Source: Lysobacteraceae bacterium (GTDB lineage Bacteria; Pseudomonadota; Gammaproteobacteria; Xanthomonadales; Xanthomonadaceae). From it: a stretch of DNA of 64,000 nt. This document shows, one piece after another, positions 1-45,353 of the stretch. Position 1 is the first letter of the stretch, and each line of letters opens with the position of its first letter. The DNA is taken from NCBI GenBank assembly GCA_003241895.1, contig QBLY01000004.1, positions 102,210 through 166,209 of the forward strand. The letters run 5' to 3'. The position numbers and the translations under genes were made by a program. The notes below the pieces were generated by a model. It searched no databases, was not told where the DNA came from, and worked only from the letters and a program-made list of their open reading frames with translations.

Positions 1-1
1 C

Positions 2-322
2 GGTGACCTGTCGTTCGGCTGCACCGGTCTCGCAGGCCTGCGCAACGGGCTGCAGATCTTCCCCGGCGGCATGCCGGTGTATCGCGGCAGCGTGCTGGTG
101 GGCGCCATCGGCGTGTCGGGCGACGGCGTGGACCAGGACGACATGGTCGCGTTCCTGGGCGTGGCCAATGCCGGCACTGCGCTTGGCGGCAGCATCGGCC
201 ACGCCCCGTCGGCGCGGCGCGCCGACACCCTGGTGCCGCAGGGCGCGCGCCTGCGCTACGTGCAGTGTCCGCAGGCGCCGTTCATCGACTCCGCCGAACA
301 GAACGTGTGCGCGGGGCTCTGA
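2..322 (+). CDS. GlcG/HbpS-family heme-binding protein, C-terminal part (5'-partial, runs off the window)
   Basis: Frame open from base 2: ...NGLQIFPGGMPVYRGSVLVGAIGVSGDGVDQDD..., matching the GG.P...G.IGVSG signature of GlcG/HbpS; stop TGA at 320-322, 4 nt before the next ATG. Confidence 0.75.
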   Translation, partial: GDLSFGCTGLAGLRNGLQIFPGGMPVYRGSVLVGAIGVSGDGVDQDDMVAFLGVANAGTALGGSIGHAPSARRADTLVPQGARLRYVQCPQAPFIDSAEQNVCAGL

Positions 323-326
323 GGCC

Positions 327-2162
327 ATGACCCGCGCCCACCGCCACGCCCTGACGCCACGCCGCCGCGCAGGGGCCTGGCTGCTGCTCGCGGTGCTGCC
401 GCTGGCGACCATGGCGCAGGACCAGCCGGCGCAGGAGCCGGCGCAGGAGCCGGCGCAGGAGCCGGCGCAGGACCAGGACGCCGAGGGCGTGGTGCGGCAG
501 CGCCCGCAGGGCCGCCCGCTGGACTACCCGCTGCCGGACATCGACCCGGCGCGCGTGTCGCCGCCGCAAGCCGCCGTGCGCCGCGAGACCCTGCCGGTGC
601 CGGACCGCTGGCGCATCATGGAAAGCCTGGGCGCCGAACGCCGGTGGTGGGACCCGTACAACCCCAACGTGCTCAAGGGCGACCTGCCATTCGAGCCGTT
701 CAAGCGCTGGGGCAACGACTGGTTCCTGGTGCTCACGGGCGTGTCGGACACGCTGGTCGAAGCACGCCGGCTGCCGACGCCGGTCGGTGCACAGTCCAGC
801 GAACGTCCCGGTTCGCTCGACGTCTTCGGGCAGGGCCGGCAGTCCACTTTCAACCAGAACCTGATCGTCGCCGCGGCCGTGATCAAGGGCAACACCACCT
901 TCAAGCCACCCGACTACGAGTTCCGCGTGGCCCTGGCGATCAACTACAACCGAAGCCAAGCCCAGGAAGTGCGGGTGCTGCGGCTGGACCCCGGCGACGG
1001 GCGCGTTCGCATCGACCAGCACGTCGGGCTGCAGGAATTGTTCTACGACAAGCACCTGCGCAATGTCTCGGACCGCTACGATTTCGACAGCCTGCGCGTG
1101 GGCGTGCAGCCGTTCATATCGGATTTCCGCGGCTTCGTGCTGCAGGACAACGCCTTCGGGGTGCGGGTGTTCGGCACCCGCGACAACAATCGCTGGCAGT
1201 ACAACGTGGCGTGGCTGCGGCGCATGGAGAAGGACACCAACAGCGGGCTCAACGACGCCGGGGTGTCGCTGCGCCGCGACGACACGCTGGCCTTCAACCT
1301 CTACCGGCAGGACTTCCCGGTGCTGGGCCACACCACCCAGCTCACCGTGATGCACAACGACAACCGCGAGGGTGGCCGGGTGCTGCGCAACAGCAACGGC
1401 TTCCAGGAGCGCCCCGCCATCCTCGGCGACGCGCGCGGACACGATTACCGCGTCACCTACCTGGGGCTGAGCGGCGATGGCCACTTCGGGCGCTGGAACC
1501 TCAGCTCTTCGCTTTACGCCGCGCTGGGCCGCGACGAGCGCCACCCGCTGGCGCAGCGCGAGAACCGCATCGAGGCCTACTTCGGTGCCGCCGAACTGTC
1601 CCGCGACTTCGACTGGCTGCGCGTGCGCGCCACGGCCATCGCCGCCAGCGGCGATGAGAACCCGTTCGACGGCCGCGCCACCGGTTTCGACGCCATCATG
1701 GAGAATCCGCAGATCGCCGGCGCCGACACCAGCTTCTGGATCCGCCAGGCGGTGCCCCTGGTGGGCGGTGGCGGCGTGGCGCTGTCGGGCCGCAATGGCC
1801 TGCTGCCCAGCCTGCGCTCGTCCAAGGAGCTGGGCCAGTCGAACTTCGTCAATCCCGGGCTGACCCTGTTCGGAATGGGTGCGGACGTGGACGTGTCGCC
1901 ACAGGTGCGCGTGGTCGGCAACCTGGCCAAGCTTGATTTCGTCAACACGTCTTCCCTGTCGGTGCTGCGCGGCCAGGGCGCGATCAGCCGCGATATCGGC
2001 GTGGACCTGTCCGCCGGCGTGCAGTACCGGCCGCATATGAACCAGAACCTGGTGTTCAACGCCTCCGCCGCCGCGCTGTTCCCGGGCAAGGGCTTCCGCC
2101 AACTGTATGCCGAACGCGGCACCCAATACTCACTGCTGCTCAACCTGGTGCTGACCTACTGA
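327..2162 (+). CDS. Outer-membrane beta-barrel protein (alginate-export/porin-like), about 611 aa
   Basis: ATG at 327 inside ORF 3..2162; signal-peptide-like N-terminus (WLLLAVLPLATMA-QD); many alternating amphipathic strands; C-terminus YSLLLNLVLTY ends in an aromatic residue as in BAM substrates. Confidence 0.75.
   Translation: MTRAHRHALTPRRRAGAWLLLAVLPLATMAQDQPAQEPAQEPAQEPAQDQDAEGVVRQRPQGRPLDYPLPDIDPARVSPPQAAVRRETLPVPDRWRIMESLGAERRWWDPYNPNVLKGDLPFEPFKRWGNDWFLVLTGVSDTLVEARRLPTPVGAQSSERPGSLDVFGQGRQSTFNQNLIVAAAVIKGNTTFKPPDYEFRVALAINYNRSQAQEVRVLRLDPGDGRVRIDQHVGLQELFYDKHLRNVSDRYDFDSLRVGVQPFISDFRGFVLQDNAFGVRVFGTRDNNRWQYNVAWLRRMEKDTNSGLNDAGVSLRRDDTLAFNLYRQDFPVLGHTTQLTVMHNDNREGGRVLRNSNGFQERPAILGDARGHDYRVTYLGLSGDGHFGRWNLSSSLYAALGRDERHPLAQRENRIEAYFGAAELSRDFDWLRVRATAIAASGDENPFDGRATGFDAIMENPQIAGADTSFWIRQAVPLVGGGGVALSGRNGLLPSLRSSKELGQSNFVNPGLTLFGMGADVDVSPQVRVVGNLAKLDFVNTSSLSVLRGQGAISRDIGVDLSAGVQYRPHMNQNLVFNASAAALFPGKGFRQLYAERGTQYSLLLNLVLTY
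425..472 (+). repeat. In-frame 12-bp tandem repeat (GCCGGCGCAGGA)x4 encoding a PAQE linker
   Basis: Four exact copies read directly, just after the predicted signal peptide. Confidence 0.95.
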
Positions 2163-5100
2163 TGGCCATTCCAAGCCGACGCCTGCTGAGCCTGATCATG
2201 GTCGGGTGCCTGATGGCGGGCGGCCTGGCCGCGGTGATCGCCGCCGACAAATCGGTGCCGGTGGCCCGGCAGTACGTGATGCATGCGCCGGCGCCGGTGG
2301 CGCAGACGCGCATCGAGGCCAGCGCCAAGTCGGATGGCTGCCAAAGCTGCCACGCCACGCCCGACCACGCGACCATGCACCAGAACCCGGCCGTCATCCT
2401 GGGCTGCACCGACTGCCACGGCGGCAATCCGCAGGTGGCGCAGCCGGCCGGCAGCGTGTATCGGGGCGATGGCCACGCCGCTTACGTCGTGGCCATGGAG
2501 AAGGCGCACGTGCTGCCGCGCTACCCGGCGGACTGGCACGCACCGTCGTCGGCCAATCCCGCGCGCAGCTACACCCTGCTCAATCGCGAAGCGCCGGAGT
2601 TCGTGCGCTTCGTGAACCCCGGCGACCTGCGCGTAGCGCGCTTTTCCTGCGGCGCCTGCCACCTGCCGATCATCCAGGCCAGCGAACGCAGCCTGATGGC
2701 CACCAGCGCGATGTTCTGGGGCGGCGCCGCATACAACAACGGCATCCTTCCCTACAAACGCTACCTGCTGGGCGAGTCCTACACCGCCGACGGCCAGCCG
2801 GCCCTGCTCAAGGCGCCGGTGCCGGTGGACGAACACATGGTGGCCAAGGGCCTGCTGCCGCAGCTGCTGCCCCTGCCGGCCTGGGAAACGGTGCCGCCGG
2901 CGGATGTATTCCGGGTCTTCGAACGCGGCGGACGCGTGATACCGACGCAGTTCCCGGAAGTGGGTTTGCCCAACGTCACCGGGCAGATCCAGCGCCTGGA
3001 CGAACCCGGCCGCCCGGACATCCGCCAGTCCAACCGCGGCCCCGGCACCGGCAGCCGCATCGCGGTGCCGCTGATCAACATCACCAAGACGCGGCTCAAC
3101 GATCCGCACCTGTGGTTCCTGGGCACCAACGAGCAGCCCGGCGACTATCGCTCCTCGGGCTGCACCGCCTGCCATACGCCCTATGCCAACGACCGCGACC
3201 CGCGGCACTCCGGGCCGTACGCCTCGGCCGGGCACCAGGGCCAGAGCCAGAGCGCCGACCCGACCATCCCGCGCGGGGAATCCGGGCATCCGATCAAGCA
3301 TGCGTTCACCCGCGCGATTCCCTCGTCGCAGTGCATGACCTGCCACATGCACCAGCCCAACATCTTCGTCAACAGCTACTTCGGCTACACCATGTGGGAC
3401 TACGAGTCCGACGCCGAGGCGATGTGGCCCAAGCAGCAGCGCTACCCGACCGATTCGGAGATGCGCGAGATATTGGACCGCAACCCCGAGGGGGCCGCGG
3501 TGCGCGGCAACTGGAGCGACCCGGCATTCCTGCGCCAGGTGTCGGAGCTCAATCCCCAGCTCAAGGACACCCAGTTCGCCGACTACCACGGCCACGGCTG
3601 GAACTTCCGCGCGGTGTTCAAGCGCGCACGCGACGGCACCCTGCTCGACAAGGACGGCCTGGAAGTCGCCGACACCGACCCGGAGCGCTTCAAGAAAGCC
3701 GTGCACCTGAGCTCGTCGCACCTGGACGCGGGCATGCACTGCGTGGACTGCCACTTCGGCCAGGACACGCACGGCAACGGCCACATCTACGGCGAAGTGG
3801 CCGCCGCCATCGAGATCGGCTGCAAGGACTGCCACGGCACCACGCGCGAGTACCCCAGCCTGTTCACGTCCGGCCCCGCCGCCGGCCCCCAGGGCACCGA
3901 CCTGAAGCTGCTGCGCACGCCCGATGGCGGCCGCCGCTTCGAATGGCGCGAGGGCCAGCTGTTCCAGCGCTCGGCGGTAACGCCCGGGCTGGAGTGGGAG
4001 ATGAGCCTGGTCAAGGACGCGGTGACGCCAGGCAACGCCCACTACAACGCGAAGGCGGCGCGCGCCAAGACCATGAGCTCGGGCGCCGCCGGACGCATCG
4101 ACGGCGCCTGGGGTGCCGCGGTGGCCCCGTCCGACTACGCCCACGGCGACGACGAGATGACCTGCCACTCCTGCCACACCTCGTGGACCACCAGCTGCTC
4201 GGGCTGCCACCTGCCGATCGAGGCCAACTGGAAGACCGAGCGCCTGCACTACGAGGGCGGCGAGACGCGCAACTACGCCACCTACAACCCGCAGGTGGTG
4301 CGCGACGACGTGTTCTCCTTGGGCCGTACCGGCACCATCTCGGGCAGTAAGATCACACCGGTGCGCTCGAGTTCGGCCCTGGTGCTTTCGTCCACCAACG
4401 CCAACCGTGAACGCATCTACGTGCAGCAGGCGCCGGTCTCCGCCAGCGGATTCTCCAGCCAGGCCTTCGCGCCGCACTACCCGCACACCGAACGCAAGAC
4501 CGAAACCAAGACCTGCACTGACTGCCACGTCTCGGAAGCCAACGACAACAACGCCATCCTGGCGCAGCTGATGCTGCAGGGAACCAACTTCGTCAACTTC
4601 ATCGGCCTGCATGCCTGGGTGGGCGAAGAAGAAGGCATCAGCGCAGTGCAGGTAACCGAGTGGGATGAACCGCAGGCGGTGATCGGCAGCTACCTGCAGC
4701 GTTACGCCTACCCGGATTGGCATGCCGCGCACTTGGCGCGCGGCCGCGAGCTGGCGGTGGCCACCGGCCACGCCACGAACGGCCAGGCGCGCTGCGTCGC
4801 GGTGCGCGGCGAGTATCTGTTCGTGGCCGAGGGCAAGGGCGGCATGCGCGTCTACGACGTGGCCTCGGTGGCCAACAAGGGCGTGTCCCAGCGCATCGTC
4901 AGCGCGCCGTTCTCGCCGCTGGGCCAGGACACGCACGTGCCCAGCCGCGATGCCACCTGCGTGGCCCTGCCCACCAACCAGCCCATCGCCCCGCTGCGCA
5001 ACCAGGGCGAGCTGATGCGCGTGACAAACCAGGAACAGCCCTTCCACCCGATCTACCACTACGCCTTCGTGGTGGATGCGCGCGAGGGCCTGATCCTGGT

Positions 5101-5956
5101 GGACGTGGACACGCTGGCCGACGGCGAACCGCGCAACAATTTCCTGAAGCGCGCGCTCACCTGGGACGGCGACGGCGTGCTGGCCGGCGCGCGCCACGTC
5201 ACTGTCGGCGGCCACTTCCTCTACATCGCCGCCGATGCCGGCCTGGTGGTGGTGGACGTGGACACGCCGCTGTCGCCGCGGGTCGCCGCCGTGCTGCCGA
5301 TGCGCGACGTGCGCGCCACGGCGCTGCAGTTCCGCTACCTGTTCGTGACCAGTGGCGCAGGACTGCAGGTGGTGGACGTGACCCACCCGGCCACGCCCCG
5401 GCGGGTGCCGGGCGCGAACGTGGCGCTGGACGACGCGCACGGCATCTACGTGGCGCGTACCTACGCCTATGTCGCTGCGGGCCGGCAGGGCCTGGCCATC
5501 ATCAACGTCGAGCGGCCGGAGCAGCCGCGCCTGCTGACGCTGTTCACTGCAGGCGGCAAGCTCGATGACGCCCGCGACGTGGTGGTGGGCTCCACCAACG
5601 CCTCGCTGTTCGCCTACGTTGCCGATGGTCGCAACGGCCTGAAGGTGGTGCAGCTCACCGCGCCCGACACCCAGCCCAAGTTCTATGGCTTCTCGCCCGA
5701 GCCGCGGCCGCAGCTGGTGGCCTGGCGCGGCACCGACTCGCCGGCGCTTTCGCTGGCCAAGGGCCTGGACCGCGACCGCGCAGTGGACGAAACCGGCGGC
5801 CAGATCGCGGTGTTCGGCCGCATTGGTTCGCGGCCGCTCAATGCCGATGAAGTGAAGAAGTTCTTCCTCAATCCTGACGGCAGCCCGTGGACCGTCCTCG
5901 ATTGGGACCCGGGCACGCCACGCTCGCCCGCCAACGCCGCCGGGAGCCCGCCATGA
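2162..5956 (+). CDS. Decaheme c-type cytochrome fused to C-terminal LVIVD repeats, 1264 aa
   Basis: 10 CxxCH motifs counted (CQSCH, CTDCH, CGACH, CTACH, CMTCH, CVDCH, CKDCH, CHSCH, CSGCH, CTDCH); N-terminal signal peptide; repeats LILVDVDT, LVVVDVDT, LQVVDVTH, LAIINVER, LKVVQLT; TGATG overlap with the upstream gene. Confidence 0.9.
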   Translation: MAIPSRRLLSLIMVGCLMAGGLAAVIAADKSVPVARQYVMHAPAPVAQTRIEASAKSDGCQSCHATPDHATMHQNPAVILGCTDCHGGNPQVAQPAGSVYRGDGHAAYVVAMEKAHVLPRYPADWHAPSSANPARSYTLLNREAPEFVRFVNPGDLRVARFSCGACHLPIIQASERSLMATSAMFWGGAAYNNGILPYKRYLLGESYTADGQPALLKAPVPVDEHMVAKGLLPQLLPLPAWETVPPADVFRVFERGGRVIPTQFPEVGLPNVTGQIQRLDEPGRPDIRQSNRGPGTGSRIAVPLINITKTRLNDPHLWFLGTNEQPGDYRSSGCTACHTPYANDRDPRHSGPYASAGHQGQSQSADPTIPRGESGHPIKHAFTRAIPSSQCMTCHMHQPNIFVNSYFGYTMWDYESDAEAMWPKQQRYPTDSEMREILDRNPEGAAVRGNWSDPAFLRQVSELNPQLKDTQFADYHGHGWNFRAVFKRARDGTLLDKDGLEVADTDPERFKKAVHLSSSHLDAGMHCVDCHFGQDTHGNGHIYGEVAAAIEIGCKDCHGTTREYPSLFTSGPAAGPQGTDLKLLRTPDGGRRFEWREGQLFQRSAVTPGLEWEMSLVKDAVTPGNAHYNAKAARAKTMSSGAAGRIDGAWGAAVAPSDYAHGDDEMTCHSCHTSWTTSCSGCHLPIEANWKTERLHYEGGETRNYATYNPQVVRDDVFSLGRTGTISGSKITPVRSSSALVLSSTNANRERIYVQQAPVSASGFSSQAFAPHYPHTERKTETKTCTDCHVSEANDNNAILAQLMLQGTNFVNFIGLHAWVGEEEGISAVQVTEWDEPQAVIGSYLQRYAYPDWHAAHLARGRELAVATGHATNGQARCVAVRGEYLFVAEGKGGMRVYDVASVANKGVSQRIVSAPFSPLGQDTHVPSRDATCVALPTNQPIAPLRNQGELMRVTNQEQPFHPIYHYAFVVDAREGLILVDVDTLADGEPRNNFLKRALTWDGDGVLAGARHVTVGGHFLYIAADAGLVVVDVDTPLSPRVAAVLPMRDVRATALQFRYLFVTSGAGLQVVDVTHPATPRRVPGANVALDDAHGIYVARTYAYVAAGRQGLAIINVERPEQPRLLTLFTAGGKLDDARDVVVGSTNASLFAYVADGRNGLKVVQLTAPDTQPKFYGFSPEPRPQLVAWRGTDSPALSLAKGLDRDRAVDETGGQIAVFGRIGSRPLNADEVKKFFLNPDGSPWTVLDWDPGTPRSPANAAGSPP

Positions 5957-7284
5957 ACCGCCTCTTGCGCCGACTTTCCCCGGCCCTGCTGCTGTGCGCA
6001 AGCCAAGCCTGGGCGCAGGCGGCGGCGCCGCTGCCCTACCAGTCCACTGACCAGTCGCTGGGCACGGTGAACTGCGCCAACAGCCTGTGCCACGGCTCGA
6101 TCACGCCCTGGCATGAATCACCGGTGCTGCGCAACGAGTACGTCACCTGGTCGCGGCTGGACAAACATGCGCGGGCCTACCGCGTGCTGCACAACGAGCG
6201 CTCGCGCACCATCGTCCGCAATCTCGGGCTGCCCACGCCGGCGCACGAAACCAAGCTGTGCCTGGACTGCCACGCGCACAACGTCCCCGAGGCGCAGCGT
6301 GGCGAACGCTTCAACCTGTCCGACGGCGTCACCTGCGAGGCCTGCCACGGCCCGGCGGAGCGATGGATCCAGTCACATGTCGAACCCGGCGCCAGCCATG
6401 CCGGCAATCTCGACCGGGGCCTGTACCCGACCAGCGATGCCGACAGCCGCGCCAAGCTGTGCCTGTCGTGCCACTGGGGCAACCAGGACAAGTTGGTGAA
6501 CCACCGGCTGATGGGCGCAGGCCATCCGCGCATGAGCTTCGAGCTGGAAACCTTCACCGCCATCGCACCGGCCCACTTCCGCGTGGACGCCGACTACCTG
6601 GCCCGCAAGCCCGCCGTGGACGGGGTGAAGGTATGGGCCATCGGCCAGGCGCTGGCGGTGCAGGAAATGATGGACCTGCTGGTGGACCCCAAGCGTGGCC
6701 GCGACGGCCTGTTCCCCGAGCTGGTGCTGTTCGACTGCCACGCCTGCCACCACCCGATGTCGCAGGCGAAGTGGCAGCCGCGTGGGCAGTTCGGTGCACA
6801 TGCGGGGCCCGGCACGGTCCGGCTGAACGACTCGGGCATGCTGATGCTGCGGGCGGTGGCCCGCGAAGTGGATCCGGCGCTGGGCCTGCGCGTGGGCCGG
6901 CAGGTGTCGCGCCTGCACCTGGCCGTCGCCGGCCAGGGCGACGCCATCGCCGAAGCGCGGGCGCTCAAGCGCCTGGCGGCCGAAGTGGCGCTGCGCATCG
7001 ACACCCACGCGTTCTCCGCCGCATCGCCCGGCCACATCGCGCTGGCGCTGGTGGACGAAGGACTGGCGGGCGGCTACGCCGACTACGCCGGCGCCGAACA
7101 GGCGGCGATGGCGATCGGCAGCGTCGTGGACCACATGCACAAGCGCGGCCTGGCCGCCCCGGCCGGCGCGCTCAACGCCGCATTGGAACGCCTCAACGCC
7201 GCGCTGGCGGACGACGAGGCATACCGTCCGGCCCAATTCCAGCAGCGCCTGCGCGAGATGCGCGCGCTGCTGGTCGCGAAATGA
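5953..7284 (+). CDS. Multiheme c-type cytochrome (c554/c552-like N-domain plus helical C-domain), 443 aa
   Basis: ATGA overlap at 5953-5956; signal peptide (…ASQAWA-Q); CLDCH, CEACH, CLSCH, CHACH plus atypical CANSLCH. Confidence 0.85.
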   Translation: MNRLLRRLSPALLLCASQAWAQAAAPLPYQSTDQSLGTVNCANSLCHGSITPWHESPVLRNEYVTWSRLDKHARAYRVLHNERSRTIVRNLGLPTPAHETKLCLDCHAHNVPEAQRGERFNLSDGVTCEACHGPAERWIQSHVEPGASHAGNLDRGLYPTSDADSRAKLCLSCHWGNQDKLVNHRLMGAGHPRMSFELETFTAIAPAHFRVDADYLARKPAVDGVKVWAIGQALAVQEMMDLLVDPKRGRDGLFPELVLFDCHACHHPMSQAKWQPRGQFGAHAGPGTVRLNDSGMLMLRAVAREVDPALGLRVGRQVSRLHLAVAGQGDAIAEARALKRLAAEVALRIDTHAFSAASPGHIALALVDEGLAGGYADYAGAEQAAMAIGSVVDHMHKRGLAAPAGALNAALERLNAALADDEAYRPAQFQQRLREMRALLVAK

Positions 7285-7312
7285 CCCTGCAGATGCCCTG
7301 GAGAAAACCAGC

Positions 7313-9733
7313 ATGAGCGGCAAGTTCCGGATCGCCATCATCGGCTCGGGGCCCGCGGGCCTGTCGGCCGCTGCCCACGCGGCCGAGCTCGGGCTTTCGC
7401 ACGTGCTGCTCGAGGCCGAGAAGCACGCATCCAATACGCTTTTCAAGTACCAGAAAGGCAAGCACGTGATGGCCGAGCCGGGCGTTCTGCCGCTGCGAAG
7501 CCCGCTGGCGTTCGAGGCCGGCACGCGCGAGAGCATCCTCGAGGGCTGGAACCAGTCGCTGCACCAGCACCAGGTCAACGTGCGCTATGGCGCCAATGTC
7601 ACTGGCGTCTCGGGGCAGCGCGGCGATTTCCAGATCACGCTGGCCGACGGCGGCACCGTGCAGGCCGAGACCGTGGTCCTGGCGATCGGCCTGCAGGGCA
7701 ACATCCGCAAGTTCGGGGTGCCCGGCGAAGACCTGCCCAACGTGCAGTACCAGCTCGACGACCCAGATGAATACAGCGCAGAGACCATCGTGGTGGTCGG
7801 CGGCGGCGACGCCGGCATCGAGAACGCGCTGGCGCTGACCGCCGGAAACCGCGTCTTCTTGATCAACCGCGAGGAGGAGTTCAACCGCTGCAAGGAAGGC
7901 AACCTGGGCCTGCTGAAGGCGGCGATCGCTGACGGCCGGATCGAGCCGCGCTCGAGCACGGCGGCGCAACGCATCGAGACCCAGGCCGAGGGCGAGCTGC
8001 CGCTGTGCTTCGTGGCGCGCACGCCCAAGGGCGAGGAGCGCATACCCTGCCACCGGGTCATCGGGCGATTGGGCGCCAGCCCGCCGCGAGCTTTGGTGGA
8101 AAGCTTCGGCGTGGTGTTCCCCAACAAGGACCGGGACGCCGTGCCCGCGGTGTCCGACCACTACGAATCCAACGTGCCCGGGATCTACATCATCGGCGCA
8201 CTGGGCGGCTACCCGCTGATCAAGCAGGCGCTCAACCAGGGTTACGAGGTGGTCGAGTACATCCTGGGCAACCCGGTGGAACCGGCGGACGAGCCGCTGC
8301 TCAAGGCCAAGTTCGCCGCCTACCGGGGCGCAGCCACGGTCAGCGAGGCGATCGCCCGGATACAGGCCGCGGTGCCGCTGCTGTCGGGCCTGACCACGCT
8401 GCAGCTGCGGGAGTTCCTGCTCGACAGCGAGATCCACCTGCCCCGGGACGGCGAGACGGTGTTCCTGCGCAACGACTACACCAACTCGCTGTACTGCATC
8501 GTCGAAGGCGAAGTGTCGGTGCTGCCCGAGCTGGTGGACGACGACGAACGCCGCATCCGGCTCGGCACGGGCGCTTTCTTTGGCGAGATGGGGCTGATCT
8601 CGGGCCGCCGGCGCAATGCCTCGGTGGTGGCCGGGCCCGGCTGCATGCTGGTGGAGACGCCGCGCCGGTCGATGCTCAAGCTGCTGGGCTCGGTGGCGTC
8701 GGTCAAGCGCATCCTGGACCAGGAATCGGTTCAGCGCGCGGTGCAGGCGTTCCTGGGCGTGCAGGTGTCCGACACCGAGCTGCATTTCCTGGCCCAGGGC
8801 GCCGAGATCCGCAGTTACGCCGCCGGACAGGTGCTGTTCGAACAGGGCCAACAAGCCGACGGGCTGTACCTGATCCGACGCGGCTCGGTGACCATCTCGC
8901 GGCTTCTCGGTGGCCGGGAAATCGTGCTGTCGTACGTGGCGGCCGGTAACTACGTGGGCGAAATGGCGCTTATTTCCAGCGCGCCGCGTTCGGCCACGGT
9001 GCGCGCGGCGGTGGCTACCGAGGCCGTGGTGCTGACGTCGGCGCGGGTGAAGCGGGTGCTGGCGGGCAACGAAAGCCTGCGCGCCGAAGTGGACGCGATG
9101 GCGCTGGGCCGAATGCAGGACAACCTGGGCATGGAGCAGGACGCAGCGCCCGGCGACCTGATCAACTTCCTGATGAAGCAGGGCCTCGGTGAAGCCACCG
9201 ACGTGCTGCTGATAGACGCGTCGCTGTGCGTTCGCTGCGACAACTGCGAGAAGGCGTGCGCCGACACCCACGGCGGCACCTCGCGCCTGGACCGCGAGGC
9301 CGGCCCCACCTTCGCCCAGATCCACGTGCCCACCTCCTGCCGGCACTGCGAACATCCGCACTGCATGAAGGACTGCCCGCCCGACGCCATCCACCGCTCC
9401 CGCGACGGCGAGGTGTTCATCAGCGACAGCTGCATCGGCTGCGGCAACTGCGAGCGCAACTGCCCCTACGGCGTTATCCGGATGGCGCCCGTACAGGGCG
9501 AACGCCGCGGTGGCGGCCTGCTGTCTTGGCTGCTGCTGGGCCTGGGCGACGAACCGGGCACCGAACCCAAGGCCGTGCCTGACGCCAAGACCAAGAAGGT
9601 CGCGGTGAAGTGCGACATGTGCAAGGACCTGCCCGCCGGTCCCGCCTGCGTGCGCAGCTGCCCCACCGGCGCGGCCATCCGCACCACGCCCGAGCGCTTC
9701 CTGGACTTCGCCGCGCAGCGCGAGGCGCGCTAG
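7313..9733 (+). CDS. FAD-dependent pyridine nucleotide-disulfide oxidoreductase / 2x cyclic-nucleotide-binding / 4Fe-4S polyferredoxin fusion, 806 aa
   Basis: GSGPAG and GGGDAG Rossmann motifs; two cNMP cassettes (FFGEMGLISGRRRNASV, YVGEMALISSAPRSATV); four Cys groups CVRCDNCEKAC, CRHCEHPHCMKDCP, CIGCGNCERNCP, CDMC...CVRSCP as in DmsB/NrfC. Confidence 0.9.
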   Translation: MSGKFRIAIIGSGPAGLSAAAHAAELGLSHVLLEAEKHASNTLFKYQKGKHVMAEPGVLPLRSPLAFEAGTRESILEGWNQSLHQHQVNVRYGANVTGVSGQRGDFQITLADGGTVQAETVVLAIGLQGNIRKFGVPGEDLPNVQYQLDDPDEYSAETIVVVGGGDAGIENALALTAGNRVFLINREEEFNRCKEGNLGLLKAAIADGRIEPRSSTAAQRIETQAEGELPLCFVARTPKGEERIPCHRVIGRLGASPPRALVESFGVVFPNKDRDAVPAVSDHYESNVPGIYIIGALGGYPLIKQALNQGYEVVEYILGNPVEPADEPLLKAKFAAYRGAATVSEAIARIQAAVPLLSGLTTLQLREFLLDSEIHLPRDGETVFLRNDYTNSLYCIVEGEVSVLPELVDDDERRIRLGTGAFFGEMGLISGRRRNASVVAGPGCMLVETPRRSMLKLLGSVASVKRILDQESVQRAVQAFLGVQVSDTELHFLAQGAEIRSYAAGQVLFEQGQQADGLYLIRRGSVTISRLLGGREIVLSYVAAGNYVGEMALISSAPRSATVRAAVATEAVVLTSARVKRVLAGNESLRAEVDAMALGRMQDNLGMEQDAAPGDLINFLMKQGLGEATDVLLIDASLCVRCDNCEKACADTHGGTSRLDREAGPTFAQIHVPTSCRHCEHPHCMKDCPPDAIHRSRDGEVFISDSCIGCGNCERNCPYGVIRMAPVQGERRGGGLLSWLLLGLGDEPGTEPKAVPDAKTKKVAVKCDMCKDLPAGPACVRSCPTGAAIRTTPERFLDFAAQREAR

Positions 9734-12700
9734 ACCGGGTTGTCGCCCGCCTCACGGGCCGGCCGGCGGCGCGCGGCCTTGGGCTTGGGCTTGGGCTTGG
9801 GCTTGGGGGATTGGTCGCCAGGTGCGGGCGCGGGGAGCGCTGTCGCCAGGGGCTCGGGCACGTCGCGCACGTGGATGTCCAACTGCGGGTAAGCGAAGGC
9901 GATGCCGCTCTCATCGAAAAGCTCGATCAGGCGCGTGTTGATCTCGTCGCGCACCGCCAACCGGTCACCAAAGGTGCCCACGAAGATGCGCAGCTCGAAC
10001 TCGAGCGTACTGGCGCCGAAGTTCAGCAGCCAGCTGGTGGGCGGCCGATCAGACAGCACCCGCGGGTTTTCCGCGGCGGCCTGCTGCAGCAGGCGATGCA
10101 CCAGCTTGGGGTCGGTGCCGTAGTCCACGCCGACCGCGATGGTGATGCGGGTGGCTTCGTCGCTCAGCGTCCAGTTCACCAGCTGGCCGGTGATGAAGGT
10201 CTTGTTGGGTACCACGATTTCCTTGTTGTCGAAGTCCAGCAAAGTGGTCGCGCGCGTGCGGATGCGCGTCACGGTGCCGTCGAGATTGTTCACCGTGATC
10301 ACGTCGCCCACCCGGAACGGCCGCTCGAACAGCAGGATCAGGCCAGAGACGAAGTTGGCGAAGATCTCCTGCAGGCCGAAACCCAGGCCCACCGTCAGCG
10401 CCGCCGCCATCCACTGCAGCTGGCCCCAGCGCAGGCCCAACAGGCCCACGCCGACCACCACGCCCACCAGCACGATGACGTAACGCGACACGCTGGTGAT
10501 GGCATAGCGCGAGGCCGCGTCGATGTTCACTTTCGACAGCAGCCCGATCTCGATCAGGCCCGGCAGGTTGCGTGCAGCCACCACGGTGAACGCCAGAACC
10601 AGCATCCCCAACATCACCGCCATCAGCGTCACCGGTACCTGGACGTCAATGCCGTCCAATCCGGTCTCGGTGCTCGACCACAGCGCGAACTCGTCAAACC
10701 GCGCGAAGGCGGGCAGCACGCCGGACCAGACCCAAGCCAGCCCCACTACCAGCAGGGTCAAGGTGATGGCGCGAAGCAGGCTGCGGGTATGCGCATTGAC
10801 CTTTTCCAGCGTGAGCGCGTCTTCCGATTCCGCTGCGATCGCCTCGCCACCGTCGACGCTCTCGCCGCCGCCCTCGGCCAAGGCCTGGGCCTCGGCCTCG
10901 CGTCGCTGCTCGAGCCGACGCAGGGCCAGCCGCCGCTCGCCGAGCACGAACCAGCGCAACAGCATGCCGCGCACCACGGCTACCGCCGTCACCATGCCGA
11001 CGCTGGCGAACATCGCGTTGAACACCATGCCGGCCGAGTAGACATAGCCGTCCATCGCCAGCACCGCGCAGGCGATCAGTGCAAACGGCAGCAGTACGCG
11101 CAGCGTCCGGCGCCGCCGGGACGGCTCGACGCTGGCGCCGCGCCGGTGCGTGAGCTGGTCCGGAGCCAGCACGCGCCACAGCATCCACGCGCTGAGCAGC
11201 GAGGCCGCGACCATCGCCACACGGGCCTGCACTGCGATGGCAAGCTCCTGGTTGCGCAGGAAGGCCAGCGAGGCGATCAGGAACAGCGGCAGCAACCCCG
11301 CCATCAGGCGCGGCGTCCAACGGGCCAGCGCCTCGCGCCGCGGCCGGCTCCAGCGGAAGTGCGCGTGCGCCAAGCCGCGCTCGCGCACCAGCCAGCGCAG
11401 GAACGCCAGGGTGAATGCGGGCATCGCGACGCTGGCGAGGGCCCGGCCCAGCGAATCGCTGTACTTGCCGGGCGTGCCCAGGTCCTGCAGCAGCGTGCCC
11501 GCCACCAGCAGGGCCAAAGCCCATGGCAGCGCCGCCACGATGGTCCAGCCCAGGGCCAGCAGGGTCGGGCGCAGGCGTACTTCCCGCTTCGCCGGCGCCA
11601 GCGCATCCAGTCGGCTGCGCGCACGGTGCTGCAGCACCAGCAGCGCCAGCACCAGCACCACGCCGGCCACGGGACCCCACGGCGACTGCTGGAACGAGCG
11701 CTGCGCCAGCTCGAAGGTGGTCGCCAGGCGCGACGGCTTCACCAGGTCGTGCAGTCCCGCGGGAACCCTGGCCAACCACGCGCTGCCCACGGGGGGATGG
11801 CTGCGGATCCACAGCAGGTGTCGATCCAGCGTCTGGCGCAGCTGGAGGTTGGCTTGAATACGGGCCTTGAGGCTGCGCTCGCTCTGTTCGAGCGCGCTGA
11901 CGTGGCGCCACATCAGCGGTTCCAGCCGGTCAGTGAGGTCCAGGCGCTCGCGCAGAAGGTCTTCGAGCAGGTTGGGCTGCGCTTCTTCGCGGGCCTGCCC
12001 GTCCTCGTCCACACCCGGCGCACCGTCGTGCAGACGCTCGGCGGCGCGGGCGGGATCGCCCAGTTCGCGCTGGGTTTCGTTCAGGCCGATCATGCGCAGG
12101 CGCAGTTCGCCCAAGGTCTGTTCGACCTCGGCCAGCTCCTTGTCCAGCACGGCTTCGGGCTCAAGGCGCCGCAGTTCCGCCCACAGCCAGTTGCCGACCT
12201 CTTCGCTGCGGCCACCCAGCTCCACGCGCGCGAGGCTGTCGCGCAACCCGGCCAGGTCGCGTGCCAGGGCTTCGTCCTGCCGGCCCACGTAACGCCGGCG
12301 GTCGGCGAGACTTTCGTTGGTCTGGACCATTTCGTTGGCCAGCGCTACGTTCCCGACGGCTGCGCTGGCCACCAGCGGTGCCTGCGCGGCGTACGCCTTG
12401 GCGCGCTCGGTGACCGCTCCGGCGAGCTGTTCAAGCTCTTCGCGACCGAGGGCGGCGATGCGCTCCTGCAGCAGCGCCAGCCGGGGCGTGCGCAGGCCCA
12501 GGTCGTGCCGCAGGGTGCGCAGCTCCAGCTCCAACAGCCGCTGGCGGGTGCCGGCCAGGTCCTGTTGGTCCTGGCGCAGCGCCAGATCCGCCATGACCTG
12601 GCGACGCTCGGCGGCGTTGCGCTGGCGACGCGCCTGGGTGAGCTTCTCCGGCTCGCCGTCGGTGGCGGCCACGGTAGCGGCGAGTTCGTCCGCGCGACGC

Positions 12701-13185
12701 TGCAGGTCGGCGATCGCTCCTTCAGGCCCGATGGTCTGCCCCAGCGACCGCGACAGGTCGGACGTTACGGCTTCGATGCGCTCGCGCAGCTGGCCGATGG
12801 CGGTCCGCTCCTGCTCGAGCGAGGCCTCAAGCGTTTCGATATTGGTGGTGCGCGGCAGCTTCGCGCGCCAGTCGGCCAGGGACTTGCGCGGATCCGCAGC
12901 CAGCCGGGCTTCCAGCGCCGCGGTACGCGCCGGGGCGCTGGCGGCTTCGGTGCGCAGCGCTTCGCGCCGCTTTTCCAAGATGCGCGACTCCTCCTCGGCG
13001 GTGGCCGCGGCTTGGGTCAACTCCGCCAGCACTTTCTCCTGCGCATTCGCATCGCCGCTTCCGCTCGAGCCGCCCAGCCCCAACGGCAGCGAGGCCAGTG
13101 CGATGGACGGCGGCAGGCACGCGACCAGGGCGCAAAGCGCCGCGGTCCGGCAGAAGGTCACGAAGTAACGGGAGGGGATGCGCAT
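9730..13185 (-). CDS. MscK-like large mechanosensitive channel (MscS family), 1151 aa
   Basis: Signal peptide, long coiled-coil periplasmic region, many TM helices, MscS signature [29 protein letters not shown]. Confidence 0.9.
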
Positions 13186-13256
13186 GGCGCAAGGCTAGCC
13201 CTGACGGGCGCAGGCGGCAATTCGCCGCCTTCACGCCGCTCTGGGACAATGCCGGC

Positions 13257-14069
13257 ATGCCCGAACTGCCCGAAGTCGAAACCACCCGCCGCGGCTTGGC
13301 GCCCCACGTCGAAGGCCGCACGGTGACCGGGGTGGTGCTGCGGCGGCCCGACCTGCGCTGGCCGATTCCGCCCGAGGTGGGGGCGTTGCTGCCCGGCCAG
13401 CGCGTGCTGGGCGTGCGCCGGCGGGCGAAGTACCTGCTGCTGGACACCGCGCCGGGCAGCGCGCTGCTGCACCTGGGCATGTCCGGCATGCTGCGCGTAT
13501 TGCCGGCCGCCACCCCGGTGCAAACCCACGACCACGTGGACATCGCGCTCGATTCGGCCTGCGTGCTGCGCTTCACCGACCCGCGCCGCTTTGGCTGCCT
13601 GCTCTGGCAGCCCGCCGGGGAAACCCACGACCTGCTCCAGCACCTGGGCCCGGAGCCGCTGTCGGAGGACTTCGACGCGGAATATCTCTACCAGCGAAGC
13701 CGCGGCCGCAAGGCCCCCATCAAGGCCTTCCTGATGGACCAGGCCGTGGTGGTGGGCGTGGGCAACATCTACGCCGCCGAAAGCCTGTTCCGCGCCGGCA
13801 TCGCCCCGCGGCGCGCCGCCGGGTCGGTCAGCCGCGAGCGCTACGTCCGGCTGGTGGCGGCGGTGAAGACCATCCTGGCCCACGCCATCACCCGCGGCGG
13901 CACCACCCTGCGCGACTTCCTGAACCCCGACGGCGCGCCGGGCTATTTCGAACAGGAGCTGTTCGTCTACGGCCGCGAAGGCGAGCCCTGCAGGACCTGT
14001 GGCCGCACCCTCCGCGACGGCCGCATGGGCAACCGGGCCACCGCCTGGTGCGCCGGCTGCCAGCGGTGA
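13257..14069 (+). CDS. mutM: Formamidopyrimidine-DNA glycosylase
   Basis: [10 protein letters not shown]-terminus, HLGMSG, GVGNIYA, C-terminal Zn finger CRTC...CAGCQ. Confidence 0.97.
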
Positions 14070-14746: not shown

Positions 14747-14761
14747 CGCCGGGGCCTCCCC

Positions 14762-40126: not shown

Positions 40127-40227
40127 AGAGGCTGCCCCAAGGGGCGGGTCGAATGGCCCGCCTGGCTGTGTGCGAGTTCCGAGGATATTGCCCTACCGTG
40201 CCCGTTTAGGTTGCTCAGCCCGCTGGT

Positions 40228-45345: not shown

Positions 45346-45353
45346 CAAAGCAG

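What the first reader, a model, noticed from the sequence alone, without database searches (positions are those of the whole stretch)
7313..9733. Cyclic-nucleotide-gated electron-transfer fusion: TrxR-like FAD/NAD(P)H module lacking CxxC, two intact cNMP domains and a DmsB-like four-cluster ferredoxin
Seen: both cNMP domains keep the phosphate-binding cassette (GE...R-x-A). The flavin module has both Rossmann motifs but I find no redox-active CxxC in it. The C-terminus has 16 Cys in the NrfC/DmsB spacing, with a hydrophobic insert (GLLSWLLLGLG) inside the ferredoxin domain. Known: CxxC-less TrxR-fold enzymes include ferredoxin-NADP+ reductases. Inference: an intramolecular NAD(P)H-to-FAD-to-Fe-S wire whose two halves are coupled by cAMP/cGMP binding. 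The insert could provide membrane contact.
Basis: partly seen in the sequence, partly recalled or inferred. Interest (0 to 1): 0.75.

Follow-up and report, generated by a model that had tools for sequence, protein, structure and literature searches.

The report
Cyclic-nucleotide-linked NAD(P)H head of cytochrome conduit
The gene is real and reads as described (flavin reductase, two cyclic-nucleotide sensors, four iron-sulfur clusters), but it is not a stand-alone enzyme: across hundreds of bacterial species it sits with a membrane cytochrome-b-like protein and multihaem cytochromes, so it is most likely the signal-controlled cytoplasmic entry point of an uncharacterised electron path out of the cell.

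Summary
Window 7313-9733 (+) encodes an 806-aa cytoplasmic protein. It has a TrxR/YpdA-fold FAD/NAD(P)H module with both Rossmann motifs and no CxxC. It has two cNMP-binding domains with canonical phosphate-binding cassettes. It ends in a HycB/NrfC-type domain with 16 invariant Cys and a conserved short hydrophobic helix.

The family is large: at least 594 species genomes and thousands of protein clusters. Sources name it only generically, and I found no functional study.

The context is new relative to the finding. In 56 of 59 informative loci the gene is linked to the same partners:
- a 5-TM protein with two invariant His pairs (H-x13-H), a candidate dihaem b;
- a decahaem cytochrome with a cytoplasmic FHA domain and one TM helix.

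Most loci also carry an HbpS-like lipoprotein, an outer-membrane protein, a decahaem/LVIVD protein and a c554-like pentahaem. The window holds the last of these genes; its start cuts the operon. One genome fuses the target to the b-type protein, and one protein fuses two FHA domains to the target. Class III cyclase-domain genes (CHASE2-linked in the two examined) lie beside the gene in 6 of 83 loci.

Best reading: a cNMP-controlled NAD(P)H to FAD to Fe-S input module that feeds a transmembrane and trans-envelope haem chain. It works like NOX or Tmc but is not a member of either. Gating and flow direction are inferred, not shown.

The parts
1..323 (+). 3' end of the HbpS/GlcG-like lipoprotein gene of the same operon, cut by the window start (frame 2)
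   Evidence: Frame-2 translation ends ...GAIGVSGDGVDQDDMVAFLG...CAGL*. The homologous 600-654 aa HbpS-like gene precedes the OM protein gene in L001, L004, L005, L086 and L087.
327..2162 (+). Candidate outer-membrane beta-barrel protein (about 611 aa, signal peptide, ends ...LVLTY)
   Evidence: No Pfam or NCBIfam hit. 7969 homologues, all 'hypothetical'. Syntenic in most loci. The barrel is inferred from the signal peptide, the lack of TM segments and the C-terminal aromatic residue.
2162..5956 (+). 1264-aa decahaem c-type cytochrome with C-terminal LVIVD beta-propeller repeats; N-terminal signal or possible lipobox (IMVGC)
   Evidence: 10 CxxCH motifs. LVIVD 1.1e-20 and Cytochrome_C7. Weak ExtM hit, 73.9 bits against a cut-off of 800.
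5953..7284 (+). about 444-aa periplasmic cytochrome c554-like protein (4 CxxCH + 1 CxxxxCH), signal peptide
   Evidence: Cytochrome_C554 1.8e-08. Haem motifs. Lies immediately upstream of the target in 32 of 83 loci.
7300..7305 (+). Shine-Dalgarno-like GGAGAA; the 28-nt gap to the upstream stop (TGA 7282-7284) suggests co-transcription
   Evidence: Sequence read.
7313..9733 (+). Target gene: 806-aa FAD/NAD(P)H - 2x cNMP - 4x[4Fe-4S] protein, cytoplasmic (no signal peptide, no TM)
7313..8347 (+). TrxR/YpdA-fold flavin module (res 1-345): GSGPAG and GGGDAG Rossmann motifs, conserved NR..F.R.K after the second, no CxxC
   Evidence: Pfam. TIGR04018 YpdA 115.8 bits against cut-off 339.9. Foldseek top hit 7a7b, TM (target-normalised) 0.82, then TrxR-type FNRs 2zbw/3ab1/6gar/3lzw. 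Column counts.
8390..8722 (+). cNMP-binding domain A (res about 360-470); phosphate-binding cassette FGEMGLISGRRRNASV at nt 8579-8626
   Evidence: Pfam cNMP_binding. PKA-R/PKG matches. G424 52/52, E425 51/52, R434 38/52.
8750..9112 (+). cNMP-binding domain B (res about 480-600); phosphate-binding cassette VGEMALISSAPRSATV at nt 8954-9001
   Evidence: Pfam best stretch 500-584. CRP/PKA matches. G549 49/52, E550 38/52, R559 41/52.
9200..9712 (+). Four-cluster ferredoxin domain (res 630-800), 16 invariant Cys in four groups
   Evidence: Fer4_11/7/9. HycB4 7qv7_B 7.5e-15, ArrB 6cz7_B, HycB 7z0s_B, PsrB 2vpw_B, FdnH 1kqf_B. Invariance in A1 and A3.
9488..9607 (+). Insert between Cys groups III and IV (res 726-765) with the hydrophobic helix GLLSWLLLGLG (735-745): candidate docking patch for membrane or the b-type partner
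   Evidence: Conserved and hydrophobic or amphipathic in all 52 sequences. AF2 helix 736-742 at pLDDT about 65. Too short for a TM span.
9730..13185 (-). Convergent mscK-like mechanosensitive channel gene whose stop overlaps the target's stop; marks the end of the operon (not part of the system)
   Evidence: MscK NF008438 3.8e-179. The same neighbour is found in L086. Downstream genes differ in other lineages.

Best explanation
The gene encodes the cytoplasmic electron-input subunit of a conserved, uncharacterised envelope-spanning redox system.

Shown:
- The protein has a CxxC-less TrxR/YpdA-fold FAD/NAD(P)H module, two cNMP-binding domains with intact cassettes, and a 16-Cys four-cluster ferredoxin domain with a conserved hydrophobic helix.
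- It is cytoplasmic (no signal peptide, no TM segment).
- Its gene is almost always linked to a 5-TM protein carrying two invariant H-x13-H pairs and to a decahaem cytochrome that has a cytoplasmic FHA domain and one TM helix.
- It is usually also linked to an HbpS-like lipoprotein, an outer-membrane protein, a decahaem/LVIVD protein and a c554-like pentahaem.
- Fusions target+b-type protein and FHA+target exist.

Inferred:
- NAD(P)H reduces FAD, and electrons pass through the four [4Fe-4S] clusters.
- The Fe-S domain docks, through its hydrophobic helix, on the cytoplasmic face of the b-type protein.
- Two b haems (H92/H264 on the inner side, H106/H278 on the outer side) carry electrons across the inner membrane to the FHA-decahaem.
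- From there they reach the periplasmic pentahaem and, through the outer-membrane protein, the surface decahaem/LVIVD protein and an external or periplasmic acceptor.
- Outward flow is favoured both by redox potential and by membrane potential, and it would waste reducing power. That rationalises a switch.
- The switch: cAMP or cGMP binding to the tandem CNB domains, placed between flavin and clusters, changes the flavin-to-cluster geometry and so opens or closes the wire. In some lineages the signal would come from an adjacent CHASE2 class III cyclase.
For: Architecture and motifs.

Fold: AF2 model with pLDDT 85.8 and pTM 0.77. Nearest folds are YpdA/Bdr and TrxR-type FNRs.

Synteny:
- The same gene set is found in L001, L002, L004, L005, L086 and L087.
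- Of 59 loci with at least 2 kb on both sides, 56 show order A (c554-like gene then target) or order B (target then b-type gene).
- In order B, 28 of 28 loci with enough flank have the FHA-decahaem next.
- A minimal three-gene module occurs in 8 of 24 loci, for example a 1.69-Mb Methylophilaceae genome.
- The triad persists at 33% identity in Simiduia agarivorans.

b-type partner:
- 5 TM segments.
- Invariant H92, H106, H116, H264 and H278.
- Weak PF01292/DUF4405 hits.

FHA-decahaem: FHA domain plus one TM helix plus 10 CxxCH motifs.

Fusions:
- P0243 is target + b-type protein (4e-68 against P0391). It lies inside a 44.5-kb contig and is followed by the FHA/YscD-like multihaem gene.
- P0255 is 2x FHA + target.

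cNMP link: canonical cassettes. Class III cyclase-domain genes lie within about 3 kb in 6 of 83 loci from at least 4 lineages; Pfam confirms CHASE2-cyclases in L065 and L053 and a cyclase without CHASE2 in L075.
Against: There is no experimental or expression evidence. Only DNA metagenome runs hold the sequence.

The b-type nature of the TM partner rests on His spacing and sub-threshold Pfam hits. Its AF2 model is poor (pLDDT 70.6) and Foldseek found nothing. A PDB profile search was also empty.

Cassette arginines are missing in many distant members that keep the same gene triad. The conserved function therefore does not require canonical cNMP binding.

No cyclase gene is in the window.

Each fusion protein is a single cluster representative. 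A sequencing or assembly error cannot be excluded.

Three informative loci (L007, L073, L075) carry the gene without the partners nearby.
Confidence: 0.55

Rival explanations
1. The machine is the same, but the CNB domains are not cyclic-nucleotide switches. They serve as a rigid linker or dimerisation scaffold, or they bind another ligand, and the enzyme is constitutive or regulated otherwise (for example through the FHA domain and a Ser/Thr kinase).
For: In about a quarter of a diverse sample the key Arg, and often the Glu, of one or both cassettes is lost, while the architecture, all 16 Cys and the gene triad persist. An FHA domain with the usual GR...S..H residues is always present in the partner cytochrome. 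An ECF sigma / Ser-Thr kinase pair lies 4.5 kb away in the window. Most loci, including the window, have no adjacent cyclase.
Against: In the window's clade, which is the bulk of the family, both cassettes are fully canonical and under strong conservation: G424, E425, R432-434, G549, E550 and R559 are invariant in 27 sequences at 63-93% identity. Cyclase-domain genes adjoin the gene in several unrelated lineages.
Confidence: 0.22
2. Electrons flow inward. Periplasmic or extracellular donors such as Fe(II), reduced cytochromes or cathodes feed the haem chain. The target then works as a ferredoxin:NAD(P)+ reductase that makes NAD(P)H for lithotrophs.
For: Carriers include Gallionella and Sideroxydans MAGs (L037, L047, L050). 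TrxR-type FNRs are reversible, and inward transmembrane complexes of this layout (Tmc/Hmc of sulfate reducers) are known (own knowledge).
Against: Moving electrons from c-type haems to NAD(P)+ is uphill in redox potential. Moving them from the positive to the negative side of the membrane is also uphill electrically, and no energy-coupling subunit is in the operon (inference from the gene content). Most carriers are heterotrophs or methylotrophs: Arenimonas, Lysobacterales, Limnobacter, Methylophilaceae, Simiduia.
Confidence: 0.1
3. The b-type protein and FHA-decahaem form a quinol:cytochrome c oxidoreductase, like a split CbcL. The target merely feeds or senses the quinone site (NAD(P)H:quinone reductase, as Fe-S to haem b to quinone in FdnGHI), or acts as a redox/cNMP sensor that regulates the conduit rather than carrying the bulk current.
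For: The weak Pfam hits of the TM protein are to PF01292, the FdnI/HyaC quinone-reactive cytochrome b family. The four-cluster domain resembles FdnH, which docks on FdnI.
Against: No quinone-site motif could be tested. The in-frame fusion target+b-type protein and the strict one-to-one linkage argue for a stoichiometric subunit but do not tell the acceptor. A pure sensor would not need four clusters and a full NAD(P)H/FAD module.
Confidence: 0.1
4. One reading: a soluble, self-contained cNMP-gated diaphorase or ferredoxin-like reductase whose acceptor is a soluble cytoplasmic molecule. On this view the cytochrome neighbours are coincidental.
For: A few loci have the gene without the partners nearby (L007, L073, L075). 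A lineage with a split gene sits among two-component genes.
Against: Linkage is seen in 56 of 59 informative loci across Alpha-, Beta- and Gammaproteobacteria and Acidobacteriota-labelled MAGs, in two gene orders. The triad is retained at 33% identity. Fusions with both partners exist.
Confidence: 0.03

Closest known systems
[quoted passage not shown]
   Same: The local gene order is the same: small multihaem, then cNMP/Fe-S protein, then haem-type TM protein, then decahaem (PtdD-E-F-G against c554-like, target, b-type, FHA-decahaem). A porin is present. The distribution across Proteobacteria and other phyla is similar. The NCBI name given for PtdE-like proteins matches the name given to the target family.
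   Different: Ptd has a pentahaem NrfA-like PtdA and a separate flavohaemoprotein-like PtdC. It does not mention an HbpS-like protein or an LVIVD decahaem. It was described from marine and saline taxa. The FAD module, the 16-Cys (four-cluster) count, the FHA domain and the hydrophobic insert are not described there. Sequence identity between PtdE and the target could not be tested because the accessions were not retrievable.
NADPH oxidase / ferric reductase superfamily and the two-component Fre-MsrQ system (PMC5676040, PMC11031084, PMC12525009)
   Same: It would work alike: cytoplasmic NAD(P)H to flavin to two stacked b haems held by two His pairs on two TM helices, then to an acceptor on the outer face. 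Control of an otherwise wasteful outward electron flow is also shared.
   Different: There is no Pfam Ferric_reduct hit. The dehydrogenase has the TrxR fold, not the FNR-superfamily fold. Four [4Fe-4S] clusters are interposed. The acceptor is a multihaem c chain, not O2 or MsrP. Regulation would be by CNB domains. It is not a member.
Tmc/Hmc transmembrane redox complexes of sulfate reducers, and FdnGHI / CbcL (own knowledge)
   Same: The layout is periplasmic multihaem cytochrome c, membrane cytochrome b, cytoplasmic (Tmc/Hmc) or membrane-docked (FdnH) Fe-S protein. A four-cluster protein docks on a dihaem b.
   Different: The cytoplasmic subunit there is HdrD-like (CCG domains), not a flavin/NAD(P)H enzyme. 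Those complexes have no CNB or FHA domains and no outer-membrane extension. FdnH is periplasmic and Tat-exported.
TrxR-type ferredoxin-NADP+ reductases (B. subtilis YumC 3lzw, C. tepidum 3ab1, T. thermophilus 2zbw, B. cereus FNR1/2) and YpdA/Bdr (7a7b, 7a76)
   Same: The flavin module has the same two-Rossmann fold without the CxxC disulfide. These are the nearest structures by Foldseek and by sequence.
   Different: The NCBIfam score is far below the family cut-off (115.8 against 339.9). YpdA's active-site Cys (own knowledge) is Ala here (GSGPAG). The ferredoxin partner is fused in cis behind two CNB domains.
AegA/YgfT/GltD-like NAD(P)H-flavin enzymes with an N-terminal HycB-like four-cluster domain
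   Same: A pyridine-nucleotide flavoenzyme is fused to a HycB-like multi-cluster ferredoxin domain. AegA is among the best NCBIfam hits for residues 632-801.
   Different: The domain order is reversed, the flavin module is GltD-type, and there are no CNB domains. The score is 67 against a cut-off of 1003.
CNB-domain-regulated proteins (PKA-R, PKG, CRP, Mt-Pat acetyltransferase, family 2B encapsulin shell)
   Same: Tandem CNB domains with canonical cassettes. The best PDB hits are PKA-R and PKG tandem domains. NCBIfam hits include CRP, Pat and encapsulin 2B.
   Different: The output is neither a kinase, a DNA-binding domain nor an acetyltransferase, but an electron-transfer chain. I found no characterised cNMP-regulated oxidoreductase in the searches run.

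Membership tests
Thioredoxin-disulfide reductase (TIGR01292) | Redox-active CxxC (CATC) in the NADPH domain | tested here: not met
   No C-x2-C in residues 1-630. The only partly conserved Cys (193, 246) are replaced by Ala, Val or Thr in many homologues.
Thioredoxin-disulfide reductase (TIGR01292) | Whole-protein score above the curated cut-off | tested here: not met
   62.9 bits against a cut-off of 343.45.
YpdA/Bdr bacillithiol disulfide reductase (TIGR04018) | Score above the curated cut-off | tested here: not met
   115.8 bits against a cut-off of 339.9, although it is the nearest fold (7a7b, TM 0.82).
YpdA/Bdr bacillithiol disulfide reductase (TIGR04018) | Conserved Cys in the first glycine-rich motif (GGGPCG; own knowledge) | tested here: not met
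   The motif is GSGPAG or GSGPSG in all 52 aligned sequences.
TrxR-type ferredoxin-NADP+ reductase | Two Rossmann motifs, TrxR fold, no CxxC | tested here: met
   GSGPAG and GGGDAG motifs. Foldseek hits 2zbw, 3ab1, 6gar and 3lzw at E about 1e-21 to 1e-22. No CxxC.
TrxR-type ferredoxin-NADP+ reductase | C-terminal subdomain with an aromatic residue stacking on the FAD; homodimer; measured Fd:NADP+ activity | not testable with these tools
Cyclic nucleotide-binding domain (PF00027) | Beta-roll with phosphate-binding cassette G-E-x-A/G-L...R-x-A-[ST] | tested here: met
   Two stretches, 121.5 bits against a cut-off of 27.5. Cassettes at 423-438 and 548-563 with Gly, Glu, Arg, Ala and Ser/Thr in place.
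Cyclic nucleotide-binding domain (PF00027) | Actual binding of cAMP or cGMP | not testable with these tools
   Requires ITC or a fluorescence assay. Adjacent cyclase-domain genes in 6 of 83 loci are only circumstantial.
Four-cluster ferredoxin of the DmsB/NrfC/HycB type (PF13247) | Sixteen Cys in four groups, groups II-IV ending in CP | tested here: met
   Cys 639-649, 676-688, 707-717 and 767-783, all invariant. Aligned over 632-795 to HycB4, ArrB and HycB.
DmsB / NrfC / FdnH orthologues (periplasmic, Tat-dependent) | Equivalog score; export with a Tat partner or signal; molybdoenzyme or NrfD partner | tested here: not met
   DmsB 55.1 against 214.1 and NrfC 40.2 against 377.6. The N-terminus is a Rossmann strand, not a signal. 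No molybdopterin or NrfD gene is in the operon.
Ptd operon (PtdE) | cNMP + 4Fe-4S protein encoded between a small multihaem cytochrome and a haem-type TM protein followed by a decahaem | tested here: inconclusive
   The gene order matches in order-B loci and, after rotation, in the window. PtdE sequences could not be obtained for comparison.
NOX / ferric reductase domain superfamily | Six-TM ferric-reductase domain (PF01794) with an FNR-type FAD/NADPH domain | tested here: not met
   The partner has 5 predicted TM segments and only sub-threshold PF01292/DUF4405 hits. The flavin module has the TrxR fold. The two H-x13-H pairs are analogous only.
MtrCAB-type porin-cytochrome conduit | MtrA/DmsE-family decahaem, MtrB porin, MtrC/OmcA lipoprotein above family cut-offs | tested here: not met
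   Only weak hits: DmsE family 22-23 bits against 192, OmcA/MtrC 19-22 against 209. The OM protein has no family hit.

The most novel reading that the evidence does not exclude
A second-messenger-gated, quinone-independent 'bacterial NOX-like' electron export machine. cAMP or cGMP, in some lineages made by an adjacent CHASE2 cyclase that senses the outside, would open a direct path. The path runs NAD(P)H to FAD to 4x[4Fe-4S] to dihaem b to FHA-decahaem, and then, in the full seven-gene form, through an outer-membrane protein to a surface decahaem/beta-propeller.

This would give hundreds of ordinary aerobic heterotrophs, methylotrophs and iron oxidisers a switchable outlet for cytoplasmic reducing power. 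Possible uses are metal or humic reduction, iron acquisition, redox balancing or extracellular superoxide production. It would also be the first cyclic-nucleotide-regulated oxidoreductase.
Probability: 0.3. Interest if true: 0.85.

Novelty: new variant of a known kind. Interest (0 to 1): 0.64.

Why it matters
Known routes for extracellular electron transfer in Gram-negative bacteria start from the quinone pool (CymA, ImcH, CbcL). A route that starts directly from NAD(P)H through a flavin/Fe-S head and a dihaem b would be a different entry point, closer in logic to eukaryotic NADPH oxidases.

If cyclic nucleotides gate it, cNMP signalling would be tied to electron flow itself rather than to transcription or phosphorylation. 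I found no characterised example of that.

It occurs in groups not thought of as electroactive (Lysobacterales, Burkholderiales, Methylophilaceae, Limnobacter, Simiduia). Several carriers are cultured, so the hypothesis is directly testable.

Tried and rejected
(1) Structure of the b-type partner. AF2 on alignment A4 gave pLDDT 70.6, and Foldseek against PDB returned only non-significant helical bundles. A PDB profile search and NCBIfam were empty. The dihaem-b assignment therefore rests on His spacing, topology and sub-threshold Pfam hits.

(2) Flavin-less 'PtdE-like' forms. The representatives P0335 and P0356 (460-472 aa) looked like cNMP+Fe-S-only proteins. They sit at the very start of contigs of about 1.5-1.8 kb and are probably fragments. 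P0300 is the 3' part of a gene split inside the flavin module; a 233-aa Pyr_redox ORF lies directly upstream in 13 contigs. I do not claim a natural flavin-less form.

(3) Matching Ptd accessions. Cluster look-ups for ten divergent representatives showed none of the PtdE accessions of Table S7.

(4) Expression. Only DNA metagenome runs hold the sequence (microbial mat, sediment), and there are no RNA runs.

(5) Literature. Seven full-text searches found no functional study of this architecture or operon apart from the Ptd preprint. The Tenderiales uet cluster is a different system.

(6) Membership of TrxR, YpdA, DmsB, NrfC, MtrCAB and ExtM was rejected. All scores are far below the curated cut-offs and defining residues are absent.

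(7) A TM role for the insert was rejected on length and hydropathy.

(8) A cyclase or phosphodiesterase in the window was not found.

Full report
THE OBSERVATION

It starts at an ATG that follows GGAGAA (7300-7305), 28 nt after the stop of the upstream gene. Its codon-position GC (0.69/0.46/0.91) is that of real genes in this 70% GC window.

Pfam finds the following:
- Pyr_redox_2 and Pyr_redox_3 over residues 5-310 (E about 1e-26 to 1e-28).
- Two cNMP_binding stretches (1.4e-35).
- 4Fe-4S dicluster models over 671-787 (about 1e-11).

There is no C-x2-C in residues 1-630. The two Rossmann motifs are GSGPAG (11-16) and GGGDAG (163-168). The phosphate-binding cassettes read FGEMGLISGRRRNASV and VGEMALISSAPRSATV. 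The 16 C-terminal Cys fall into the four groups typical of DmsB/NrfC/HycB proteins. GLLSWLLLGLG lies between groups III and IV.

THE PROTEIN FAMILY

The protein belongs to a very large, tightly conserved family.
- More than 6800 hits were found. The best 120 are all about 800 aa, at 63-93% identity with about 100% coverage. Sources name them only 'cyclic nucleotide-binding domain-containing protein' or by COG strings.
- Against 50%-identity representatives there are 957 hits below 1e-30. Full-length members reach down to about 32% identity.
These include Lysobacterales (Arenimonas is closest, at 73-93%), Burkholderiales, Usitatibacter, Gallionella, Sideroxydans, Methylophilaceae, Alphaproteobacteria and some Acidobacteriota-labelled MAGs.
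- Cultured carriers are Limnobacter humi, Pseudomarimonas arenosa and Oceanibacterium hippocampi and Simiduia agarivorans.

In 52 sequences spanning 31-93% identity, all 16 Cys are invariant. C193 and C246 of the flavin module are not conserved, so there is no hidden redox cysteine.

The cassettes are invariant among close relatives but erode in distant ones. R434 is kept in 38 of 52 and R559 in 41 of 52. Several members below 45% identity have no Arg or Glu at all.

The insert is always present and always hydrophobic or amphipathic.

STRUCTURE

An AF2 model built on the 52-sequence alignment is confident (pLDDT 85.8, pTM 0.77). The insert is modelled as a short helix, 736-742, at lower confidence.

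Foldseek against PDB matches only the flavin module. The best hits are YpdA/Bdr (7a7b, target-normalised TM 0.82), followed by TrxR-type ferredoxin-NADP+ reductases. No solved structure has the whole architecture.

By sequence, the CNB pair resembles PKA-R/PKG tandems. The Fe-S domain resembles HycB3/4, ArrB, HycB, PsrB and FdnH.

Scores against every curated equivalog (TrxR, YpdA, DmsB, NrfC, AegA, CRP) are far below cut-off. The protein is a member of none of these families.

It has no signal peptide and no TM segment. The insert is about 11 residues long, too short to span a membrane.

The target is the last gene of a + strand run in the window:
- the 3' end of an HbpS/GlcG-like gene, cut by the window start;
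- a 611-aa secreted protein with no family hit, a candidate outer-membrane barrel (327-2162);
- a 1264-aa decahaem cytochrome with LVIVD repeats (2162-5956; 10 CxxCH);
- a c554-like pentahaem (5953-7284);
- the target.

A convergent mscK-like gene ends the run.

The closest relative with more flank (L086) shows the complete operon:
- a 286-aa membrane protein;
- an FHA-TM-decahaem (560 aa);
- an HbpS-like lipoprotein (628 aa);
- the OM protein;
- the decahaem/LVIVD protein;
- the c554-like protein;
- the target.

The same set is found in unrelated contigs with different flanks.

By tblastn over 83 loci there are two gene orders. In order A (32 loci) the c554-like gene is followed by the target. 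In order B (41 loci) the target is followed at once by the 286-aa membrane protein gene. Of the 59 loci with at least 2 kb on both sides, 56 show one of the two orders. In order B the FHA-decahaem follows in 28 of 28 loci with at least 4.5 kb of downstream flank.

Of the 24 order-B loci with at least 9.5 kb of downstream flank, 16 continue with the HbpS-like, OM and LVIVD-decahaem genes and 8 do not. The latter keep only a three-gene core. One example is a 1.69-Mb Methylophilaceae chromosome, where the core lies next to aa3 oxidase genes. The same triad is kept in Simiduia agarivorans at 33% identity.

THE PARTNERS

The 286-aa protein has five hydrophobic segments and invariant H92, H106, H116, H264 and H278. 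This gives two H-x13-H pairs on two TM helices.

By the positive-inside rule, H92 and H264 lie toward the cytoplasm and H106 and H278 toward the periplasm. That is the arrangement expected for two stacked b haems. A helical domain of about 110 residues would face the cytoplasm.

Pfam gives only sub-threshold hits to cytochrome b561/Ni_hydr_CYTB and DUF4405. The PDB, NCBIfam, AF2 and Foldseek attempts added nothing. The dihaem-b assignment is therefore an inference.

The FHA-decahaem has an N-terminal FHA domain, one TM helix (141-159) and ten CxxCH motifs. The FHA domain is thus cytoplasmic and the haems periplasmic.

FUSIONS

- P0243 (1110 aa) is the target fused in frame to the b-type protein (BLASTP 4e-68 against P0391). 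It lies in the middle of a 44.5-kb contig and is followed by the FHA/YscD-like multihaem gene.
- P0255 (1134 aa) carries two FHA domains in front of the target.

These fusions support physical association of the three proteins on the cytoplasmic face. The caveat is that each is a single representative.

THE LINK TO CYCLIC NUCLEOTIDES

No cyclase gene lies in the window.

In 6 of 83 loci a class III cyclase-domain gene lies within about 3 kb of the target. In Limnobacter humi (L065) and in L053 it is a CHASE2-sensor cyclase. The L056 and L057 hits have the same position and strand as in L. humi but were not examined by Pfam. The L075 cyclase has no CHASE2 hit and sits beside a hybrid histidine kinase; L055 was not examined. 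This is more than I would expect by chance for genes present a few times per genome, but it is anecdotal.

MECHANISM: WHAT IS SHOWN AND WHAT IS INFERRED

Shown: the architecture, the motifs, the cellular location, the linkage and the fusions.

Inferred:
- NAD(P)H reduces FAD. The conserved N185-R186...R192-x-K194 after the second Rossmann strand hints at a 2'-phosphate site, hence possibly NADPH.
- Electrons cross the four clusters.
- The Fe-S domain docks through its hydrophobic helix on the b-type protein.
- Two b haems take electrons across the inner membrane to the FHA-decahaem.
- In the full operon the chain continues through the pentahaem, the OM protein and the surface decahaem/LVIVD protein.

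Outward flow is downhill in redox potential and is helped by the membrane potential. It would therefore drain reducing power unless controlled. The tandem CNB domains sit exactly between the flavin and the clusters, where a lid or hinge movement on ligand binding could change the tunnelling distance. I put the whole statement at 0.55. The 'input module of the conduit' part taken alone is about 0.75, and the cNMP gating part taken alone is about 0.5.

RIVALS

- The CNB domains are structural or bind another ligand (0.22). This is supported by cassette loss in deep branches that keep the triad.
- Flow is inward, to make NAD(P)H (0.10). This is disfavoured energetically and by the lifestyles of most carriers.
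- The system is a quinone-loop or sensor version (0.10).
- The protein is a stand-alone soluble enzyme (0.03). This is contradicted by the linkage and the fusions.

COMPARISON WITH WHAT IS KNOWN

The only literature match is a preprint that names a ptdABCDEFG operon in marine bacteria. [quoted passage not shown] The authors call its function completely unknown.

The local order matches the core found here, so the two are probably versions of one system. I could not compare sequences, however.

In working principle the system resembles NOX and Fre-MsrQ (PMC5676040, PMC11031084, PMC12525009) and the Tmc/Hmc complexes (own knowledge). In parts it resembles TrxR-type FNR plus a HycB-like ferredoxin. 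It fails the membership tests for all of them.

VERDICT

I rate it a new variant of a known kind (transmembrane and porin-cytochrome redox systems), with interest 0.64.

Noticed in passing
window 14222-17575 (+): An ECF-type sigma factor gene (Sigma70_ECF 3.7e-37) is followed at once by a 937-aa Ser/Thr protein kinase with TPR repeats, 4.5 kb from the operon. An FHA (phosphothreonine-reader) domain is an invariant part of the operon's decahaem partner, so a kinase link is conceivable. I did not test whether this pair is syntenic elsewhere.
   Followed up: no
window 40000-46000: GC drops from about 0.69 to 0.64. ORFs here lack the high GC3 of the rest of the window. They include an HTH_3 regulator, a LytTR-domain protein and several ORFs with no family hit. 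This is possibly a horizontally acquired segment.
   Followed up: partly
window 9730-9733: The stop codons of the target (+) and of the convergent mscK-like gene (-) overlap by four bases, so there is no room for a terminator between them. The 1238-aa + strand ORF 9610-13326 is an antisense shadow of mscK, typical of high-GC DNA.
   Followed up: partly
L086 1-5418; L087 1-5047; L075 13016-13894: In the closest relative, a type II secretion operon (gspF-N) lies directly upstream of the cluster. In another lineage, cytochrome c maturation genes (ccmA-H) are divergent from it. A T2SS C gene follows the target in L075. In Shewanella, surface decahaem lipoproteins need the T2SS (own knowledge).
   Followed up: no
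L077 6231-14894: In a 1.69-Mb Methylophilaceae chromosome the system is reduced to three genes (target, b-type protein, FHA-decahaem). It sits divergently next to aa3-type cytochrome oxidase subunits I and II. This suggests a purely periplasmic acceptor in that organism.
   Followed up: partly
P0252 (1212 aa): This family member has long low-complexity or repeat-like insertions of about 400 residues inside the CNB region, while the flavin and Fe-S modules stay intact. Their meaning is unknown.
   Followed up: no
L090 4952-7349; L091 2859-5256: In one lineage the gene is split inside the flavin module into a 233-aa ORF and a 564-aa ORF two bases apart. This is seen on 13 contigs, among two-component system genes and without cytochrome neighbours. 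It may be a frameshifted pseudogene or a true split.
   Followed up: partly
L086 8110-9996 and window 1-323: The HbpS/GlcG-like protein of the operon has a lipoprotein-type signal (..LLYGC) and a large N-terminal part with no family hit. Its role in a cytochrome conduit is unexplained; haem handling or sensing are possibilities.
   Followed up: no
window 24665-26356 (-) and 26353-26991 (-): A UbiB-like ABC1 kinase gene is followed by an SCP2-domain gene, probably a ubiquinone biosynthesis pair (ubiB/ubiJ-like). This is ordinary and unrelated to the finding.
   Followed up: no
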